Origin: the human T2T-CHM13v2.0 reference genome, Homo sapiens
DNA length: 64,000 nt
Strand: one strand, 5' to 3'
NCBI RefSeq assembly: GCF_009914755.1
Contig: NC_060928.1
The notes beneath the pieces were generated by a model. That model ran no database searches, was not told the origin of the DNA, and worked only from the letters and a program-made list of their open reading frames with translations. This document shows positions 26,011 to 50,543 of this stretch, piece after piece. Positions within the stretch are counted from its first letter, which is position 1. The number at the start of each line of letters is the position of its first letter. Position numbers and translations under genes: made by a program.

Positions 26011-26726
26011 ACAGACGCGAGAGTGTCAGCCATTGCTATTGGTGGTGGTGGTGTTATGGTCGCCCCCAGCTCCAGTGCCCAGAGCGGAGCCTGATGTGGG
26101 GCAAGCGCTTGGTGAGTGTAGAACTGAAATCAGTGACCCTCTGCTGGGTGGAGAGATGAGTCCCAGCCTGGGGTTTAGGGACATGGGTGCTGTCCCTGCC
26201 GTGAGGAGTGAAGGGCAGGCAGGACAACTCCCCCTTTACAGATGAGGAAACTGACTTTCAGAGATGGCAACTGACTTGTTCAGGGTTGCCCAGCTGGGCT
26301 CAAGTGCTAAGAGTAAATGCAATGTTGCATGTCACAGACTGGCGGCGTTTGGTACCCAGCCTTGCCGTGATACTCCCGGGGTGCATTTTGCCTTGATGCC
26401 TGGTTCTGTCAGTCAGAAAGGGATTGTGCCAAATCCCTGGGTATCTGGGAATTCCCTGAGACTCCAGTTTAAGGGGGCTTCATGCAACTTAGCAGTCATT
26501 CCACACTATGCAATTTCAGTCCTGGGTGAGTACTGACAGCAGCCACAGCCGTGCAGAAAATGCACACGTGAGTGCTGCATCATTCTATGGCCTGGGTCCT
26601 CTGTGTCCCAACACATGTTCCCCTGGATTCTGGGTACCTGGTCACATCCATGTAAGGAACCCCCATCCACCTGTGCCCTTTGGCACTCTGACCAAACACA
26701 TCCGGATCCCTCCAGGGTGTTATTAT

Positions 26727-28769: not shown

Positions 28770-28920
28770 GTGCGTGTCCTAGCTGTGTGACTTTGGTCAA
28801 GTTACTTAACCTCTCTGGACCTCCAATTCCTCATCTGTAATAAAGAAGATGATGACCTTTCCGTGCCAGTGTCCTGTGAGAATTGAAGACAGCATCTGTG
28901 AAGTGCCTGGCCTGCCAAAA
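28770..28920 (+). mobile_element. MIR
   Basis: ctagctgtgtgactttggtcaagttacttaacctctctggacctccaattcctcatctgtaa. Confidence 0.85.
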
Positions 28921-29409
28921 GCCTTCTGGAACAGTAGTGATGATCACTGTCATCGTGTGTGACCCTGGGCTGTGTGCCTGTCTTGTCTCATTCTCAGTTT
29001 TCTCATCTGTGAAAGGACAGAATTTGACTAGTCTATTTTTTAAGGTCCTTGTTCTTTATTCGATTTTATTCCTCTTTCCAGGTGTACACTACTTTTTTAG
29101 TAATTATAATATTTGAAGCCCAATGCTTTAATCAGACTTTGGCAAAAATAACTGATCACCTTAAGAAGACAAATGTTCCAGAGATTGGAGAATTCCATTC
29201 GTGGCCTGAGAAAGGCTGGCTTCTGTGTTAGGCCAGGGTATGAGGATAGCTCAGGGGGTGGGAACCCTGAGAGCTTGTGTCTGGCACTGTAGGGATGGGG
29301 ACTTGATGAGCCATTGGATTAGGCCAGCAGGGTTTTAGCCAGAAGTATCATGGGCCCCTTGATTTTTACTGTAAGTCAGTTTGGCACTGGTATGTGGGAT
29401 TATGCAGTT

Positions 29410-29940: not shown

Positions 29941-30019
29941 GTCATTTGTGAGGGCTTCTAGGGCGCCAGGTCCTTGTCTAGGGGCTTTTCTGTGTCACTT
30001 CATTCATGCCTCTGTGACA

Positions 30020-30140
30020 TCCTGGTAGATGGGACTATCACAGTCCCCATTTTACAGATGAGGAACTAAAGGTGGACGGGGAAGTAACTTGCTCAAGCCC
30101 TCGCACAAAGCACGTGGTGGAGCTGGATTCAAACACAGAA
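30020..30140 (-). mobile_element. MIR
   Basis: ccccattttacagatgaggaactaaagg...aagtaacttgctcaag...gagctggattcaaac. Confidence 0.8.
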
Positions 30141-30347
30141 CTCCCTTCCCCTCCTGCGGTATTGACATGTGCAGTATAGACGACAAGAAAAAAGATGCCA
30201 GGACCCGCAGGTTTCCTCTCTCTGGTAAAAGCTGGATTTATCCACTCAGATTTGCTCTATGTGGCCCCTGAGCAGGGCCCACGGTGCGTGTGAGCATGCC
30301 CTCAGCAGGCTGAGGCAGGAGTGAGTCTTCTCTAAGAAAGAGGGGTA

Positions 30348-36757: not shown

Positions 36758-37344
36758 GCAGGAACTCTAAACTGTGGGGATATATTCAGTCATTCATTCA
36801 CTCATTCATTTATTCATTGAATACCCACAAATGCAAAGGCCCTTGCTAGGAACTGGGGGATTACAGAGCTGAACTGGAAATGGATTATGCCCTCCGGCTC
36901 GGAGCCCGGGAGGCAGGAAAACCCCAAATCTCGGATGCGAACGTAATGTGGTTACCATCAATAGCGGGGGAGCTGTGACAGCTAAGCCTGGCAGAAATCA
37001 GCTGCGTCTCGCATGATGGGGGGTTGGGACTATGGGGGTGTCGGGAAAGGGGGCGTCTAGCATGAGCAGACATGCTGGGGGCAGAGTGTGAGGTCTGTTG
37101 GGGGAAGAGTGGGGAGCTCGGTCTGGCAGAGCCAGATAGGGCTGGATGGGTTTGGGATCCAAGTGAATTGAATCTCCAGGCAGAGTGTGGGCACCGGCCC
37201 CAGCCACCCATTCCTAGCATCCTTTGGAAGTAGGTGTCATCGGTAGAGACTCGGGGGTCATTAATTTATGGCTCCTGGGCATTCACTGGTGATTTGAGAA
37301 GCTCAATAGGAACTTCTCAGTATTTCTAGAACAGGACAAGTTTT

Positions 37345-37860
37345 GCTATTTTAACATCTGGGAGACCTGTGGGGCAGGAGAGAGAGAAGGGATATTATTA
37401 GAATGTGTGAATCTTGGCCGGGCTCCCTCGGGCCCTGGAGTGGGCAGGTGGCCAGAGGACAGAAGTGATATTTCACACAGATGGTGGCCTCTCCAGGCCT
37501 CTGCAAACCAGCAGGACGGATCGGCGGTGAGGTGAGGCTCGTGTGCCTGGCGCCAGGAGTGCCCACCAAGAACCTTAAATGGGTGAGGGGGCTGGTTTTG
37601 CTCAGCACCGACCTTGGGGAAGGCTGTGTGAGGGCAGGGAGACCCAGGCCTGGGGGTGGTGGGGGTGGGGAACTCCCCGGGGCTCCAAGAGAAACCAGTG
37701 TAAGTATGGACCCTGAGAGGCGGCAGGGCAGGGAGAGCCTCTCCGCATCGCGATGGTCACAGTGGCTCTTCCAGGCAGGGAGCCCGGCCAAGATTCACAC
37801 ATTTTAATAATGCCCCTTCTCCCTCTCCTGCCCCACAGGTCTCCCAGATGTTCAAATAGC
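37345..37860. repeat. spaced inverted repeat, 84-bp arms (37345-37428 / 37777-37860), 348-bp spacer
   Basis: Manual alignment of the left arm's reverse complement to the right arm gives 79/84 identity, ungapped. Confidence 0.97.
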
Positions 37861-38417
37861 TTGTGTCCTGCACACTGACTGAGAGTGTGTCCTTGACAAG
37901 TCCCTTCACCTCCCTGAGCTCCAGGCTTGTCACCCGTAAAAGGTGGTGACAGGAAGAGAAGTGCACATGTGGGAAGCTCCCAAAAGGTGCCATGTGCTCT
38001 ACCCCATGTGTGCCCACTCTCCTCTGGCCTCCCCCAGCCCCTTGTCCTTCTCTGCCTGCTCTGTGCCCTGGAGGTGAGTCCACAGCTTGCTTACCTGGCC
38101 TCCCTGGCCCTGGCCTCCCATTGGGTTCAGTCAACGAGAGGCGCCGACAGGAGATGGGAGGAAGGCGAGGATGGGGGATGGGTTCCTGCAACTTTCTCTT
38201 TGAGGTCTGGGGTTGCTGTGTTTGCTGCTTTCCTCTGTCCACAGCTCCACTGGCCAGCCCTGGCCCATGGCTACAGCTCTCACCCGCCCAGGTACCTCTG
38301 CTCTGTCCTCTTCCTCCTTCAGTGTTGGGGGAGTGGTGGCTTCCCGCAGGGGCGGAGTGCTTCCGCTGTGTCCCCTGCTGACTCCTTGGCTCTGTCCACA
38401 CCTCTGTGATTATCCCT

Positions 38418-42708: not shown

Positions 42709-44204
42709 GGCCTATTCCTGTAGGCCACTGCTTAAGCACTGGGATAGTGTGGTAACAAGACAGACATAGGCCCCTGTCCTCTCAGAGCTTCCAGTGTAGT
42801 GTGGAGGACACCAGATGAGAAGCAAATCAACAAATATGATTCCCAGGTAATTGCTGGTAGCAATAGGTTCTATTAGGGAAATATATACAAGATGATCGGC
42901 AAGAAGCTGACTGGGGCACTTTGGTGAGGGGTTCAAGGAGGGCCTCTGAGGAGGGGGCTGGGAGTGTGCAGCCATCCTGCTGAGGGTTCCCATGGGGAAC
43001 ACTGGGCACACTGACACGACCTCCACACAGCCCTCAGCAGGGACTCCCTTTCCATGCCTCCTGGGTCTTGTGTGCCTTCCAGCCAGGATTTAGGCACTGC
43101 TTTTTCTTTAGGCTGTGTCTGGTGAAGGTGGAGGGACTCAGGACACAGCCCAGACATTCTTGGGAAAATCACCGCAGGGCTCAGACGGCCAATGTGGGAC
43201 CTCGTCGTCCAGGTTTGAGGAGCTCTGGGAGTCCTACGACTGAGGTCTCTGCCCAGTTTGGTCTCAGGGACTCATCCTAACAGTTTATATGCCTGCCTTC
43301 TGCTTCCCGACTGCTGCAGAGGAAAGAACAGGGGCTTTGGAACCAGAGACCTGCGATTAAATCTGGAATCATGTCACCCCAGTGAGCCTTGGTGTCTTTA
43401 CCTGTGAAATTACCACCCTCCATTCCTCATGGGCAAATGCAGGTGTGGGAAGTAACCAGATTGTTTTAAATACTCAATAAATGACGGTTGTATTAGTAAT
43501 AAGAGGACTTTGAGTCATTGTTGAAATCTGTAGAGAGGTCACCTGGTGTAATGGAAGGAAAATGGACTGAGAGTTGGGAGGCTGAGGAGTCCCGGTCCCC
43601 TCCCTGGTTTCCCTGAACTCACCTGTGAAAAAGCCCAGCCTGGAGGAGCAGGAAGGACCTTGTCAAAGAAAGCACCCGTCATTCTGGTTCTGTGATGCTG
43701 GTGGCACAGGCTGGGCAGGACGCTGGCCGGGTGTTCATCATCGTCTGCCTCATTGTCCTGGGAAGGAGCCGGGCGTGTCCGACCTGATTGCGAACCTGCT
43801 GTGTGTGTGAACTTGGTGTGGAGTTCCCACGGACTCCTTCCTGGCTCCAGGTTCTCCTGCATTTGGCCAAGAAGCCTTGTTCAGCAGCTGGCTTCAGCTA
43901 AGCCCGTGGTCTCTGCTGCCTGTATGTCAAAGTGGCTGGGGCACAGGGCTGTCCAGCAAGGCTGCTGACTCTCCTGGGGACTGCTGCTTGGCAGGCTCCT
44001 CCTCCATGCTGGTGTGGGGCTGGCAAGACTCCACTGTGGACACCCACCTCATGGTGTCTCAAAACAGCCAGGGCTGGGCAAGTGCCTTCATGGTCAAGTT
44101 CCACCCCGACGTGGACACTGGTTCATCCACGGAGCTTGCTGGGCACCATGGACCTTGGTGCGTCTCGTTCCCACCGTGGGCCGTGGTGTTGGCAAGCTGG
44201 TGAA

Positions 44205-46115: not shown

Positions 46116-47824
46116 TGGGCCCCATTCCCTTCCTGCAGAGGGAGGGGCTGGCTCTGCTCTCTGTTTGCAGTCCCCAAATTCAGCCCAGGACCAGGGCTCA
46201 GGCTGAAGTTGTTTGTCGAAAAACAGCCTCCGGCTCATCCTCCTCCACTTCCCCAGACTCCTACTCTTCCTCCGTGTCATCCTACCTGTCTCCCTGTTCT
46301 CCTTTCCCGGCCCTGCACTTCCACAAGACTCAGACCTGACCCTAAATTTCCCTTTTTTCTGGAGCCCGAGGTGTTTCTTGCCTGGGCCCTGGTGCCACAG
46401 AGCTGAGGGACCCTTTTCTGTCCCTCACGAGTTGGGTCCAGCTCACCCCAAATCATGAGCTCCCTGGAGCTCCCAGCCAATAGGGCTGTGCAGGCCAGCG
46501 GGTGGCCTGGCCTGGGAGGGCACAGCTTGGTGGAACAATTCAGAGTCCCTCCGTGGAAGTTGGGAGAAGATGCTGGACTCCTCTGGTGAAGTGTCGGAGC
46601 TTCCTACCCGAGCCCTGGCTTGTTTCGGGAGCAGCTGTGAAGGGAGTGGAGGGCTGAAGCGCCCCTCATTTCCGTCCTGCCCTCCTCCCTTCTTTCTTTC
46701 AGGAGACCCGTTGAACACCTTCCCTGTGCCACCTTCTGTGCTCTGAGCTTTCCCGGGATGTCTCTGATCATCTCCAGGGATTTTCTGAAGATCATTTGGG
46801 AACAGTAGTTCCTACCCAAAGCATCTGGGGCCCCTGTCTTTACTCTCTCCACAGCCTGTTAGCTGTGAGTCATCCATTCATTCATCAAGCACTCCGGTGG
46901 TTTCCCACAGTGTGAGGATGAAGCGGACTCAGCCCTGCCCTCAGCATTCCTGCAAGGCCAGCTCAGATACCCCCTCCCCCAGGAGGCCCTCTCTGATTGC
47001 CCAGCATCTATGGGAACGCTGCCTCTCACTCTGCTGCTTTGGACCTCAGCTAAGACTCTGGCCACGTTCTGCCTCAGTGGCTCCAGCATTGCTGTGCTAA
47101 GCCTAAAACACCAGGGTCAGGCTGCCGGGCTCGAGTCCCAGCTCGGCCCCCTGTCGCCACGCCATAACTGCCTCCCAGCGTGTTTCCTCTGCAGACGGTG
47201 GCTCATCACAGTGCCAGCTTTTTGGGCAGTCTGGAAGAATCAGTGGGGGGTGGGGGAGGTGTGGCAGGGGAGGGCCACAGAGAGGGAAGGAAGCCCTCTG
47301 AACGCAGGCTGCTATTGGTACCAGCCTGGATCGCTGCAGCCCCCACAAAGCACGAAATAGTTTCTCAATAAATATTTATTGCATGAATCAGTGAATCAAA
47401 CTTTCTAATTCAGCGGAAACACTATGACCACCAGGGACGGGACAGACAAGAGTGATGATTAGAGATGAGTAGGCATCTTCCTTTCTCCTAAGCCTTTCTT
47501 ACCCTTCTGGTATAACTACTTCTTCCCTGTTTTACCTAAGCGTTAAATTCGTGGATGCTGATTTTCAATTCTTAGCACAAAACACCTGCTTACTTGAGGG
47601 CAGAGCCTGGGAGATCCTGGAGAAACCCCCGTGGTGGTAGAGTAAGGACTTGCCGCAGCTCCGAGGATGGGTCGAGTAGGGCGTCTATTTCCCCGCCCCT
47701 ACCCAAGCAGGCTGGGGCGAGGTCTCTGCAGATCTCCTCCTGGCCACCCCAGCCCTGGCCCGTAAGCAGAACTCGCTGGATACATGGAGGAAAGATGGAA
47801 TGGATGACAACACCAGCTCAGCCA

Positions 47825-48118
47825 GCCAGGCACCGTGGCTCATGTCTGTAGTCCCAGCACTTTGGGAGGCTGAGGCAGGCAGATCACCCGAGGTCAGGAG
47901 TTCGAGACCAGCCTGGCTAACATGGTAAAACCCCGTCTGTACTAAAAATACAAAAATTAGCCAGGCGTGGTGGCAGGTGCCTGTAATCCCAGCTTCTCAG
48001 GAGGCTGAATCAGGGAGAATTGCTTGAATCTGGGAGACGGAGGTTGCAGTGAGCCGAGATTGCGCCACTGCACTCCAGCCTGGGCAACAAAGCGAGACTC
48101 CGTCTCAAGAAAAAAAAT
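47825..48118 (+). mobile_element. Alu (AluS-type)
   Basis: gccaggcaccgtggctcatg...gaggtcaggagttcgagaccagcc...gagactccgtctcaagaaaaaaaa. Confidence 0.97.
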
Positions 48119-49635
48119 ACCAGCTTGTCTGGGTCATCGGGGGTCTGTCAGTCAACCCGTCAGTGAGTGATGAGACGAGCAGCTCCTGTTGTAGAATGAG
48201 GTGACAATGGCACAGGTAGGTGACCTTTATGCTCAGGGAAGTCTGCACACCTTGAGGAAGCTGGAGCCGGAAGATGCAGGCCCGCTGGTGCCGGCTGTGT
48301 GGGGTTTGGGGTTTGTGGGTGGGGTTCTGGTTGTCTACACAGCCTGAGGTGTGAACTGAGTGGTGGGCCCCGGGCCCCTGGAGCTCCCTTCTCCCCTTGT
48401 GGGGCAGTCCATGGCCTTGGAGGATCCCTGGATTCAGAGGACCCTCTGGGCTGAATTCATTGCATCTGTGAGAGGGAGCTGTAAGTAAGTGGGAGTGAAG
48501 GGATGAAGGTTTCTGTCCTTTGGTGAACATCCCTGTGGTTCCTGCCACATTGTCTAAAGGATGCTTCCTTGAGTTTTTCAACCCTTTACCTTAGTGGGGA
48601 GCATGTGGGGAGTTGTCAAAGGCCTTTTCCTGGAAAGTAATTGACAAGGAGGGAGACAGGGAGCTTCCTGTCGTCCACTTAACAATCCCTCAACCCCTCT
48701 CCCATCCCTCGTCATCCAGCATGCAATGGGGCCGTCAAACTGAAGGAAGCTGTGCCGATGGCCACCCCAGATCAGGTGCCGTCGTTAATGAGGCTGCCAG
48801 GATCAGGCACTGCTGTTATTAGTGGTAACTGCAAACCTCCGAGGGCCCATGTGTGTCCTGCTGGGTATCAGGGGCCATGCAGACAGTAAAGCCCAGGGCA
48901 GCCTGCAGGGCTTTGCACACACGAGTGGGTGACCACCTGTGAGTGAAGGGAGTGCCCAGGGTGGAGGGAGCATAAAGGAGACAACAACCTGGCCAGGGAG
49001 TGGAGGAGGAGCAGGGAGGGCTTCCAGGAGGAGGTGATGCTGGAACTGCTTCCATCTTAAAGCAGGTGCAGCAGGTAGCAGGCCCATGGGCATCCCAGGG
49101 AGAGGGCCTGGAGGGGACCTCAGCTTAGGGTGAGTGAGATGCCACAGATGGAGGAGGCTGATACTCAGGGCATTTTAGGATTGAGTGGGAATTCATAAGG
49201 CAGAGGGAAGGAGGGAGGTGGCAGGACTGGAGACCCAGGCTCCAGGGAGGAGGCCTGGCCTGGGAAGGAGACTTCTAGAAGCACATGGGCTGGGGCCTGG
49301 TGGTTGGCAGAGCGGGGGTTGAGGTTGACGGGAGTAGGTCTAGGAGCCCCACAGGCAGCCGATTCAGCATCAGCGTTGCAGGGCGTCACCTCTGCCAGGC
49401 CCTGTGCTGTGCTGGGCTGGGCAAGAGGCCTGAGGGCCTGGAGGAGCTTACATTCCAGTGCTGGGATGAGGGCCGGTGATGCCAGGGTGCTGGTGGTGTC
49501 CCAGGAGGATGGCACTGTCATTCTCTGGAACAGCAAAGGTCCTGAGTGAGACAGGCAAGTGACCGGCAGGAAGGGAGCTGCCGTTGTGCAGGGCCGCCAG
49601 GGCCCCCGGTTGCACCATGACATGCGGCCAGGTGA

Positions 49636-50543
<908 letters not shown>

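What the first reader, a model, noticed from the sequence alone, without database searches (positions are those of the whole stretch)
37345..37860. 84-bp near-perfect inverted repeat whose arms are a complete 3' splice-acceptor module
Seen: the left arm 37345-37428 and right arm 37777-37860 are reverse complements at 79/84 positions with no gaps, and pairing extends imperfectly on both sides (caggacaag / ttgtgtcctg outward). I do not recognise the arms as any Alu, L1 or MITE. The right arm reads ttttaataatgccccttctccctctcctgccccacag|gt: a branch-like TTAAT, a pyrimidine tract and CAG at 37836-37838. The left arm gives the same acceptor on the minus strand with a CTAAT branch point. Four of the five differences are transitions, so on either strand they become two G-U wobbles and two A-C mismatches. 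Known: A-C mismatches in long duplexes are preferred ADAR sites, and RNA stems can mask splice sites. Inference: a transcript through this locus would fold an ~84-bp duplex that hides the acceptor, which could act as a structural silencer or editing-controlled switch for a cryptic exon. The CAG|GT junction has the AG|GT form of recursive splice sites, but GTCTCC is a poor donor.
Basis: partly seen in the sequence, partly recalled or inferred. Interest (0 to 1): 0.8.

Follow-up and report, generated by a model that had tools for sequence, protein, structure and literature searches.

The report
Unique inverted duplication masking lncRNA acceptor
A short stretch of human SORCS2 intron 1 was copied once in reverse orientation 348 bases away, so RNA made here should fold into a long hairpin that buries the splice acceptor of a predicted non-coding RNA, but nothing yet shows that this does more than a neutral accident would.

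Summary
Arms 37345-37428 and 37777-37860 are complementary at 79 of 84 positions, with 348 nt between them and a 7-bp outer extension. The RNA fold is far better than shuffles (z -12.9).

The arms occur nowhere else in the T2T genome at the sensitivity I had. They have no target-site duplication and do not match a MIR-type SINE profile built here. Homology stops sharply at the arm ends. I read this as one local inverted duplication, by template switch or fold-back, and not as a MITE or an Alu pair. From 5 differences in 84 and recalled mutation rates, it is roughly tens of millions of years old.

The left arm lies in that RNA's exon 1, and both annotated donors lie in the loop. The stem is predicted to pair the branch point, pyrimidine tract and AG (unpaired probability 0.05, against 0.29-0.30 with the left arm shuffled).

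A masking or editing switch stays untested. The acceptor is used in the gene model, both A-C mismatches have a disfavoured 5' G, and wobble against A-C is 2:2. This is a new member of a catalogued class, non-repetitive intronic dsRNA. Interest is modest.

The parts
37332..37338 (+). Outer extension of the left arm (CAGGACA). It is separated from the core arm by a 6-nt bulge (37339-37344).
   Evidence: It pairs with 37864-37870 in the MFE and in the duplex fold.
37345..37428 (+). Left arm of the inverted repeat. It is purine-rich on the + strand and lies inside exon 1 (37095-37582) of predicted lncRNA LOC105374371. On the minus strand it carries a second copy of the acceptor-like module (CTAAT, pyrimidine tract, CAG at 37369-37367).
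   Evidence: plus the hub annotation.
37429..37776 (+). 348-nt spacer, which forms the loop. It has 64% GC and holds both annotated exon-1 donors (AG|GTGAGG at 37531/37532 and GG|GTGAGG at 37582/37583) and the RefSeq 'silencer' 37453-37614. Its two halves share no inverted homology.
   Evidence: plus the hub annotation.
37777..37860 (+). Right arm of the inverted repeat. The first 62 nt are the 3' end of lncRNA intron 1 and the last 22 nt are the start of exon 2.
   Evidence: plus the hub annotation.
37804..37838 (+). 3' splice-site module inside the right arm: the yUnAy motif TTAAT at 37804-37808, a pyrimidine tract at 37811-37834 (22 of 24), and CAG at 37836-37838. The annotated exon 2 starts at 37839.
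   Evidence: It is predicted to be almost fully paired (mean unpaired probability 0.051).
37864..37870 (+). Outer extension of the right arm (TGTCCTG).
37839..38073 (+). Exon 2 of the predicted lncRNA LOC105374371. It ends at a strong donor, GGAG|GTGAGT (38073/38074). After splicing, 21+7 bp of the stem are still predicted to form between exon 2 and exon 1.
   Evidence: Hub annotation.
37873..37924 (+). Degenerate fragment of an abundant old SINE-like repeat (the name MIR is recalled). It starts 3 nt beyond the extended right arm and is not part of the inverted repeat.
   Evidence: A profile built here from genomic copies gives 13.0 bits, E 1.7e-5 over 1.9 kb searched, at profile positions 99-151 (a weaker version is). 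The arms themselves give no hit.

Best explanation
The structure is a locus-specific inverted duplication. One mutational event wrote a reverse-complement copy of about 84-94 bp of unique intronic sequence 348 bp from its source. The event could have been a replication template switch, fold-back repair synthesis, or a micro-inversion with a staggered break. Since then the two copies have drifted apart by 5 substitutions and one small indel patch.

The duplication lies in SORCS2 intron 1 and inside the predicted lncRNA LOC105374371. Because the copied sequence is a pyrimidine tract followed by CAG, one copy serves as the acceptor of lncRNA exon 2. The other copy sits, as its complement, in exon 1.

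Any + strand transcript (SORCS2 pre-mRNA or the lncRNA precursor) should fold the arms into a near-perfect duplex of about 84 bp. That duplex buries the branch point, pyrimidine tract and AG, and loops out both exon-1 donors. The expected consequences are a dampened, helicase-dependent use of this acceptor and a good ADAR substrate. I take these to be by-products of a neutral duplication, not a selected switch.

What is shown: the repeat, its uniqueness, its sharp edges, the predicted fold, and the coincidence with the annotated acceptor. What is inferred: the mutational mechanism, the age, the neutrality, and any effect on splicing or editing.
For: The repeat is real and far beyond chance.

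It is unique. The 571-nt unit, the 107-nt right arm and the 170-nt right flank find only this locus in the 3.1-Gb genome. A 24-mer from the arm centre with up to 3 mismatches gives 12 hits, of which 2 are the arms, against 7 for the reversed control. For comparison, a 20-nt SINE core motif gives 1256 exact hits against 0 for its control.

There is no target-site duplication of 3 nt or more at either candidate boundary. The edges are sharp: the flanks and the spacer show no further inverted homology.

Template-switch papers describe one-step creation of inverted repeats, with or without an inverted spacer (PMC5453318, passages), and an event of up to 83 bases (PMC10710096, passages).

Wobble against A-C is 2:2 on either strand, the neutral expectation.

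Predicted masking: unpaired probability 0.051 against 0.29-0.30.

The stem's values are dG -168.8, a longest run of 30 bp and a 348-nt loop. They lie near the medians a preprint gives for edited non-repetitive human dsRNAs (dG -184.8, 30 contiguous bp, loop 509 nt) and far from the unedited ones (-44.6, 14 bp) (PMC11838218, Table 1 text).
Against: No outgroup genome could be consulted. The one-event origin, the direction of copying, the age and the neutrality are therefore not shown.

The genome search uses a loose first look and skips very common words (tool text). Only one 24-mer was tested with mismatches, so an old low-copy repeat family diverged by more than about 15% is not excluded.

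At 84-94 nt copied over a 348-nt distance, the event is larger than the tens of bases typical of published short template switches.

The exact overlap of a strong acceptor module with the arm could be more than coincidence. Only 4 such modules occur in 128 kb of both strands at my criteria, and 2 of them are the arms. The left arm also sits in exon 1 of the same RNA.

The acceptor is used in the gene model despite the stem, so the predicted masking may be weak in cells.
Confidence: 0.6

Rival explanations
1. This is a selected RNA switch. The exon-1 arm pairs with the branch point, pyrimidine tract and AG of exon 2. Access to the acceptor is then gated by ADAR editing or an RNA helicase, for the lncRNA or for a 235-nt pseudo-exon (37839-38073) within SORCS2 intron 1.
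For: The acceptor region is predicted to be almost fully paired, and freed when the left arm is shuffled. The acceptor is annotated and exon 2 ends at a strong donor (hub table). In human genes, complementary regions are reported as depleted at active splice sites and enriched at inactive and cryptic ones, and as enriched in editing sites (PMC8052449, passages). The stem's dimensions resemble those of edited non-repetitive dsRNAs.
Against: There is no expression, editing, duplex or junction evidence. No paper names the lncRNA (0 papers). Both A-C adenosines have a 5' G, the least favoured context, and editing them would tighten the stem. Wobble against A-C is 2:2, so no bias towards kept pairs. 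The arms look young and no conservation could be tested.
Confidence: 0.12
2. This is a relic of a low-copy non-autonomous DNA transposon (MITE) or foldback element. Its long terminal inverted repeats are the arms and its interior is the spacer.
For: It has the right architecture: 84-94-nt terminal inverted repeats around a 348-nt interior, about 540 bp in all.
Against: No other copy of the arms or of the whole unit was found in the genome, and the arm 24-mer shows no excess at up to 3 mismatches. There is no target-site duplication. The hub lists no masked stretch of 100 nt or more here.
Confidence: 0.07
3. The repeat acts at the DNA level. It could extrude a hairpin or cruciform that affects replication, stability or the activity of the RefSeq 'silencer' 37453-37614 lying between the arms.
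For: The silencer lies wholly inside the spacer (hub table). The arms are 94% identical.
Against: A 348-bp spacer makes extrusion unfavourable (general knowledge, recalled). No data on this point were reachable. The region is not a CpG island (CpG o/e 0.29).
Confidence: 0.04
4. The arms are two old SINE (MIR-type) fragments in opposite orientation. This was my own first reading by eye.
For: A MIR-like fragment lies at 37873-37924, 3 nt beyond the right arm.
Against: The profile finds no match in either arm even at E up to 1000, and no match on the left flank. Two independent old copies could not be 94% alike.
Confidence: 0.02

Closest known systems
Inverted repeats created by replication template switching (four-point TSM model; TSM-born hairpins and miRNAs)
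   Same: The arm is a reverse-complement copy of nearby unique sequence with sharp ends, it instantly makes a long RNA hairpin, and no transposon is involved. The papers describe event types that give an inverted repeat with or without an inverted spacer (PMC5453318) and an event of up to 83 bases (PMC10710096).
   Different: This one is larger (84-94 nt copied, 348-nt spacer) than the typical tens of bases. The ancestral state is unknown because no outgroup was available. The loop is far too long for a miRNA precursor.
Non-repetitive intramolecular dsRNAs of the human genome (dsRNAscan catalogue, preprint PMC11838218)
   Same: The stem is intronic and not made of repeats, and its length, energy, contiguous pairing and loop length sit near the medians reported for the edited non-repetitive class. 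By my arithmetic from the scoring rule quoted, it would score 79x3 - 5x4 = 217, above that scan's threshold of 75.
   Different: Here one arm carries an annotated acceptor.
Long-range complementary regions that obstruct splice sites (PCCRs, PMC8052449) and duplex-forming inverted repeats that loop out splice sites
   Same: One arm covers the pyrimidine tract and AG, and the donors lie in the loop. The expected effect is repression of that splice site.
   Different: PCCRs are defined by conservation, which was not tested here. They are typically much shorter stems and tend to avoid branch points, whereas this stem covers the branch-point motif.
Inverted Alu pairs (IRAlus), the main ADAR substrates
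   Same: A long intronic duplex would form from two inverted copies. A typical pair lies in the same window at 47829-48117 / 50162-50450.
   Different: The arms here are unique sequence and not Alu. They are shorter (84 nt against about 300 nt) but much better paired (94% against 78-84%).

Membership tests
MITE / DNA transposon with terminal inverted repeats | Terminal inverted repeats | tested here: met
   The arms are 84 nt and 94% complementary.
MITE / DNA transposon with terminal inverted repeats | Multiple related copies in the genome | tested here: not met
   Only this locus was found. The arm 24-mer gives 12 hits against 7 for the control at up to 3 mismatches. Sensitivity to copies diverged by more than about 15% is limited.
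MITE / DNA transposon with terminal inverted repeats | Target-site duplication flanking the element | tested here: not met
   There is no direct repeat of 3 nt or more at either boundary, and no shared 5-10-mer within 20 nt of either boundary.
MIR-type SINE | Match of the arms to a family profile | tested here: not met
   A profile built from genomic copies gives no hit in either arm. Only the flank 37873-37924 matches. The profile's first ~70 positions are poorly defined.
Template-switch (TSM) inverted repeat | Reverse-complement copy of nearby sequence with discrete ends | tested here: met
Template-switch (TSM) inverted repeat | Ancestral or outgroup sequence lacks the copy, and a single event explains the change | not testable with these tools
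   No other primate or mammal genome is held.
ADAR-edited dsRNA | Long, mostly uninterrupted intramolecular duplex in a transcribed region | tested here: met
   The predicted duplex has dG -168.8 kcal/mol and a longest run of 30 bp. It lies in SORCS2 intron 1 and in a predicted lncRNA (hub table). The fold is a prediction only.
ADAR-edited dsRNA | Observed A-to-I (A-to-G) changes in RNA | not testable with these tools
Recursive splice site | Acceptor directly followed by a strong reconstituted donor (AG|GTAAGT-like) | tested here: not met
   CAG is followed by GTCTCC, and exon 2 is annotated to run on to 38073.
miRNA or other Rfam family | Match to a curated covariance model | tested here: not met
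   There is one sub-threshold match only (mir-156, 19.9 bits against a gathering score of 62, E 0.99), and it lies outside the arms.
Conserved complementary regions (PCCR) | Both arms in conserved elements, with compensatory substitutions | not testable with these tools
   No alignments are available. SORCS2 is not named in the main text of PMC8052449 (0 occurrences).

The most novel reading that the evidence does not exclude
This is a primate-born, self-masking splice site. A single inverted duplication both supplied the acceptor that created exon 2 of a new lncRNA and placed its perfect antisense in exon 1. Use of the acceptor then depends on unwinding or editing of an 84-bp stem. In SORCS2 pre-mRNA the same stem keeps a 235-nt pseudo-exon silent in a neuronal gene with a very long first intron.
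Probability: 0.07. Interest if true: 0.6.

Novelty: new member of a known kind. Interest (0 to 1): 0.3.

Why it matters
If the neutral reading holds, this is a clean textbook-sized example of how one local inverted duplication can instantly create a very stable RNA hairpin around a working splice site. It is useful as a test case for template-switch models and for dsRNA catalogues, but it is not surprising. If the stem really gates the acceptor, it would be a rare non-Alu, non-conserved example of structure- or editing-controlled splicing in a neuronal gene locus. It would also show that duplications can deliver a splice site together with its own inhibitor.

Tried and rejected
- **MIR origin of the arms (my own first reading by eye).** I built a profile from 30 genomic copies anchored on a 20-nt core motif and iterated it to 75 sequences. 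It finds 15 copies in the window at E<0.001. At this locus it finds only 37873-37924 and nothing in the arms. Rejected.
- **Larger degenerate palindrome around the arms.** The flanks and the spacer halves score like shuffles. Rejected.
- **Transposon.** No copies were found and there is no target-site duplication.
- **Known RNA family.** Rfam gives only a chance-level match.
- **CpG island or G-quadruplex in the unit.** CpG o/e is 0.29, and the only G4 motif is upstream at 37018-37045.
- **Literature on the lncRNA.** 0 papers hold LOC105374371. SORCS2 does not occur in the main texts of PMC11838218, PMC8052449 or PMC10691357.
- **Earlier findings of this scan.** They were not open.
- **Supplementary tables of the dsRNA catalogue.** They were closed, so I could not see whether this stem is already listed or edited.
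- **A window reference given as a pattern.** The format is not accepted.
- **Direction of copying.** GC skew fits each arm to its own side. The MIR-like fragment that starts 3 nt past the right arm fits either overwriting of the SINE's 5' part or simple 5' truncation. The direction stays undecided.

Full report
**Observation.**
The repeat finder gives one inverted pair in 36800-38400: 37345-37428 and 37777-37860, 84 nt, 94% complementary, 348 nt apart. A base-by-base comparison gives 79 of 84 matches with no gaps.

On + strand RNA the five exceptions are:
- U37352/C37853
- A37383/C37822
- A37392/C37813
- U37393/G37812
- G37401/U37804

That is two A-C mismatches, two wobbles and one pyrimidine-pyrimidine mismatch. 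On the minus strand the wobbles and the A-C mismatches swap.

Beyond the core, a 7-bp helix (37332-37338 with 37864-37870) follows a 6-nt/3-nt bulge. There the homology stops. Inverted alignments of the outer flanks and of the spacer halves are no better than shuffles; 60 of 200 and 18 of 200 shuffles reach the observed scores.

The RNA fold of 37310-37895 has MFE -333.8 kcal/mol against -236.8 (sd 7.5) for 100 shuffles, z -12.9, and none of the shuffles folds as well. In the whole window, the only other inverted pairs of 40 nt or more within 3 kb belong to one repeat pair at 47829-48117 / 50162-50450, at 78-84%.

**What the arms are not.**
- The 571-nt unit finds only this place in the 3.1-Gb genome, apart from the two arms matching each other. 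So does the 107-nt right arm. The 170-nt right flank finds only itself.
- That search has a loose first look and skips very common words, so I added a mismatch-tolerant test. A 24-mer from the arm centre (37788-37811) with up to 3 mismatches gives 12 hits, of which 2 are the arms, against 7 for the reversed control. For scale, a 20-nt core motif of an old SINE gives 1256 exact hits against 0.
- By eye I had thought the right arm was the 5' part of a MIR-type SINE (a name I recall; no tool gave it). To test this I built a profile from 30 genomic copies and iterated it to 75 sequences. It detects 15 copies in the window at E<0.001. At this locus it detects only 37873-37924, with 13.0 bits and E 1.7e-5 over the 1.9 kb searched, at profile positions 99-151. 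It finds nothing in either arm even at E up to 1000. The 5' ~70 positions of my profile are poorly defined, so this negative is firm only for the outer ~30 nt of the arm.
- There is no target-site duplication of 3 nt or more at either candidate boundary.
- Rfam gives only a chance-level match outside the arms.

The arms are therefore unique sequence, copied once, locally, in reverse.

**Origin.**
A discrete reverse-complement copy of nearby unique DNA, with sharp ends and no transposon hallmarks, is what replication template switching or fold-back repair produces. The four-point template-switch model includes event types that create an inverted repeat, or an inverted repeat around an inverted spacer (PMC5453318, passages seen). 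A later paper on miRNA birth mentions an event of up to 83 bases (PMC10710096, passages seen). This case is at or above that size, and the 348-nt distance is long for such events. I therefore name the class (local inverted duplication) with more confidence than the exact mechanism.

From 5 differences in 84 (K = 0.062) and recalled neutral rates of 0.5-1.2e-9 per site per year, the point estimates are 26-62 million years. The Poisson range is 8-139. This is an inference that assumes no gene conversion between the arms.

Which arm is the copy cannot be decided. Each arm fits the GC skew of its own side. The SINE fragment that starts 3 nt past the right arm is compatible with overwriting of its 5' part or with ordinary 5' truncation.

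**Relation to genes.**
According to the hub's RefSeq table, the locus is in SORCS2 intron 1 (sense strand) and inside the predicted lncRNA LOC105374371. Its exon 1 is 37095-37582 (alternative end 37531), exon 2 is 37839-38073, and exon 3 is 43112-43499. The sequence shows good donors at 37532 and 37583 (GTGAGG), CAG at 37836-37838, and GTGAGT at 38074.

The left arm lies in exon 1 of the same RNA, and both donors lie in the loop.

The module is strong. It has TTAAT at 37804-37808, 22 of 24 pyrimidines at 37811-37834, and CAG|G. With those criteria only 4 sites occur on the two strands of the window, and 2 of them are the arms.

No paper in the library names the lncRNA (0 papers).

**Predicted behaviour in RNA.**
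- The two arms hybridise with -168.8 kcal/mol on the + strand and -167.3 on the minus strand.
- In a model precursor (37095-38073), the mean unpaired probability of 37800-37840 is 0.051. With the left arm shuffled it is 0.29-0.30 (5 shuffles).
- After splicing, a 21+7-bp remnant of the stem between exon 2 and exon 1 is still predicted.

The stem's values are close to the medians a preprint reports for edited non-repetitive human dsRNAs and far from the unedited ones (PMC11838218, Table 1 text):

| Measure | This stem | Edited non-repetitive (n = 4,597) | Unedited non-repetitive (n = 492,832) |
|---|---|---|---|
| dG (kcal/mol) | -168.8 | -184.8 | -44.6 |
| Longest contiguous run (bp) | 30 | 30 | 14 |
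| Loop (nt) | 348 | 509 | 1407 |

So if it is transcribed, it is a plausible ADAR substrate.

In human genes, complementary regions are reported as depleted at active splice sites and enriched at inactive and cryptic ones (PMC8052449, passages). This makes repression the expected direction of any effect.

**Why I do not adopt the switch model.**
- The acceptor is used in the gene model with the stem in place.
- The two A-C adenosines have a 5' G (GAG and GAT). In a survey of Alu editing, C opposite the A raises editing, but G is the least preferred upstream neighbour (PMC3091650, passages). Editing at those two sites would give I-C pairs and tighten the stem.
- The branch A (37807) and the A of the AG (37837) are paired to U in the stem. 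Promiscuous editing would tend to damage the acceptor, not release it (inference).
- The four transitions split 2:2 between wobble and A-C on either strand. This is the neutral expectation and favours neither strand, although four events carry little weight.
- No expression, editing, crosslinking or conservation data could be reached.

**Verdict.**

The best explanation is a neutral, locus-specific inverted duplication of primate age that happens to carry, and to mask, the acceptor of a predicted lncRNA exon (confidence 0.6). The rivals are:
- a selected RNA switch (0.12)
- a low-copy MITE relic (0.07)
- a DNA-level role (0.04)
- two SINE fragments (0.02)

It belongs to a catalogued class, non-repetitive intronic dsRNA-forming inverted repeats. 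I rate it a new member of a known kind, with interest 0.3.

Noticed in passing
window 47829-48117 and 50162-50450: A pair of inverted repeats about 300 nt long, 78-84% complementary and about 2-2.4 kb apart, coinciding with two stretches the hub lists as masked (47822-48125, 50152-50455). By recalled motifs they look like Alu elements, the usual ADAR substrate. They are much less well paired than the 84-nt stem.
   Followed up: no
window 37873-37924: A degenerate fragment of an abundant old SINE-like repeat starts 3 nt after the extended right arm. Its 5' part is either truncated or overwritten by the arm.
   Followed up: partly
window 36900-38400: GC skew on the + strand is positive (0.19-0.46) from about 36900 to 37800 and turns negative at the right arm and beyond. 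The switch lies at the spacer/right-arm boundary, not at the centre of the repeat. The region is GC-rich (58%) but not a CpG island (o/e 0.29).
   Followed up: partly
window 37018-37045: A G-quadruplex-type motif (four G runs) lies about 50-75 nt upstream of the annotated lncRNA start at 37095.
   Followed up: no
window, 15 places (e.g. 29941-30162, 28777-28949, 26235-26353): The SINE profile built here finds 15 copies in the window at E<0.001. Several of them lie outside the stretches that the hub lists as masked.
   Followed up: no
window 40344 and 46700 (+ strand): These are the only two other sites in the window that meet the strict acceptor-like criteria (22 or more of 24 pyrimidines, YAG|G, and a yUnAy motif upstream). 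Neither is an annotated exon start in the hub table.
   Followed up: no
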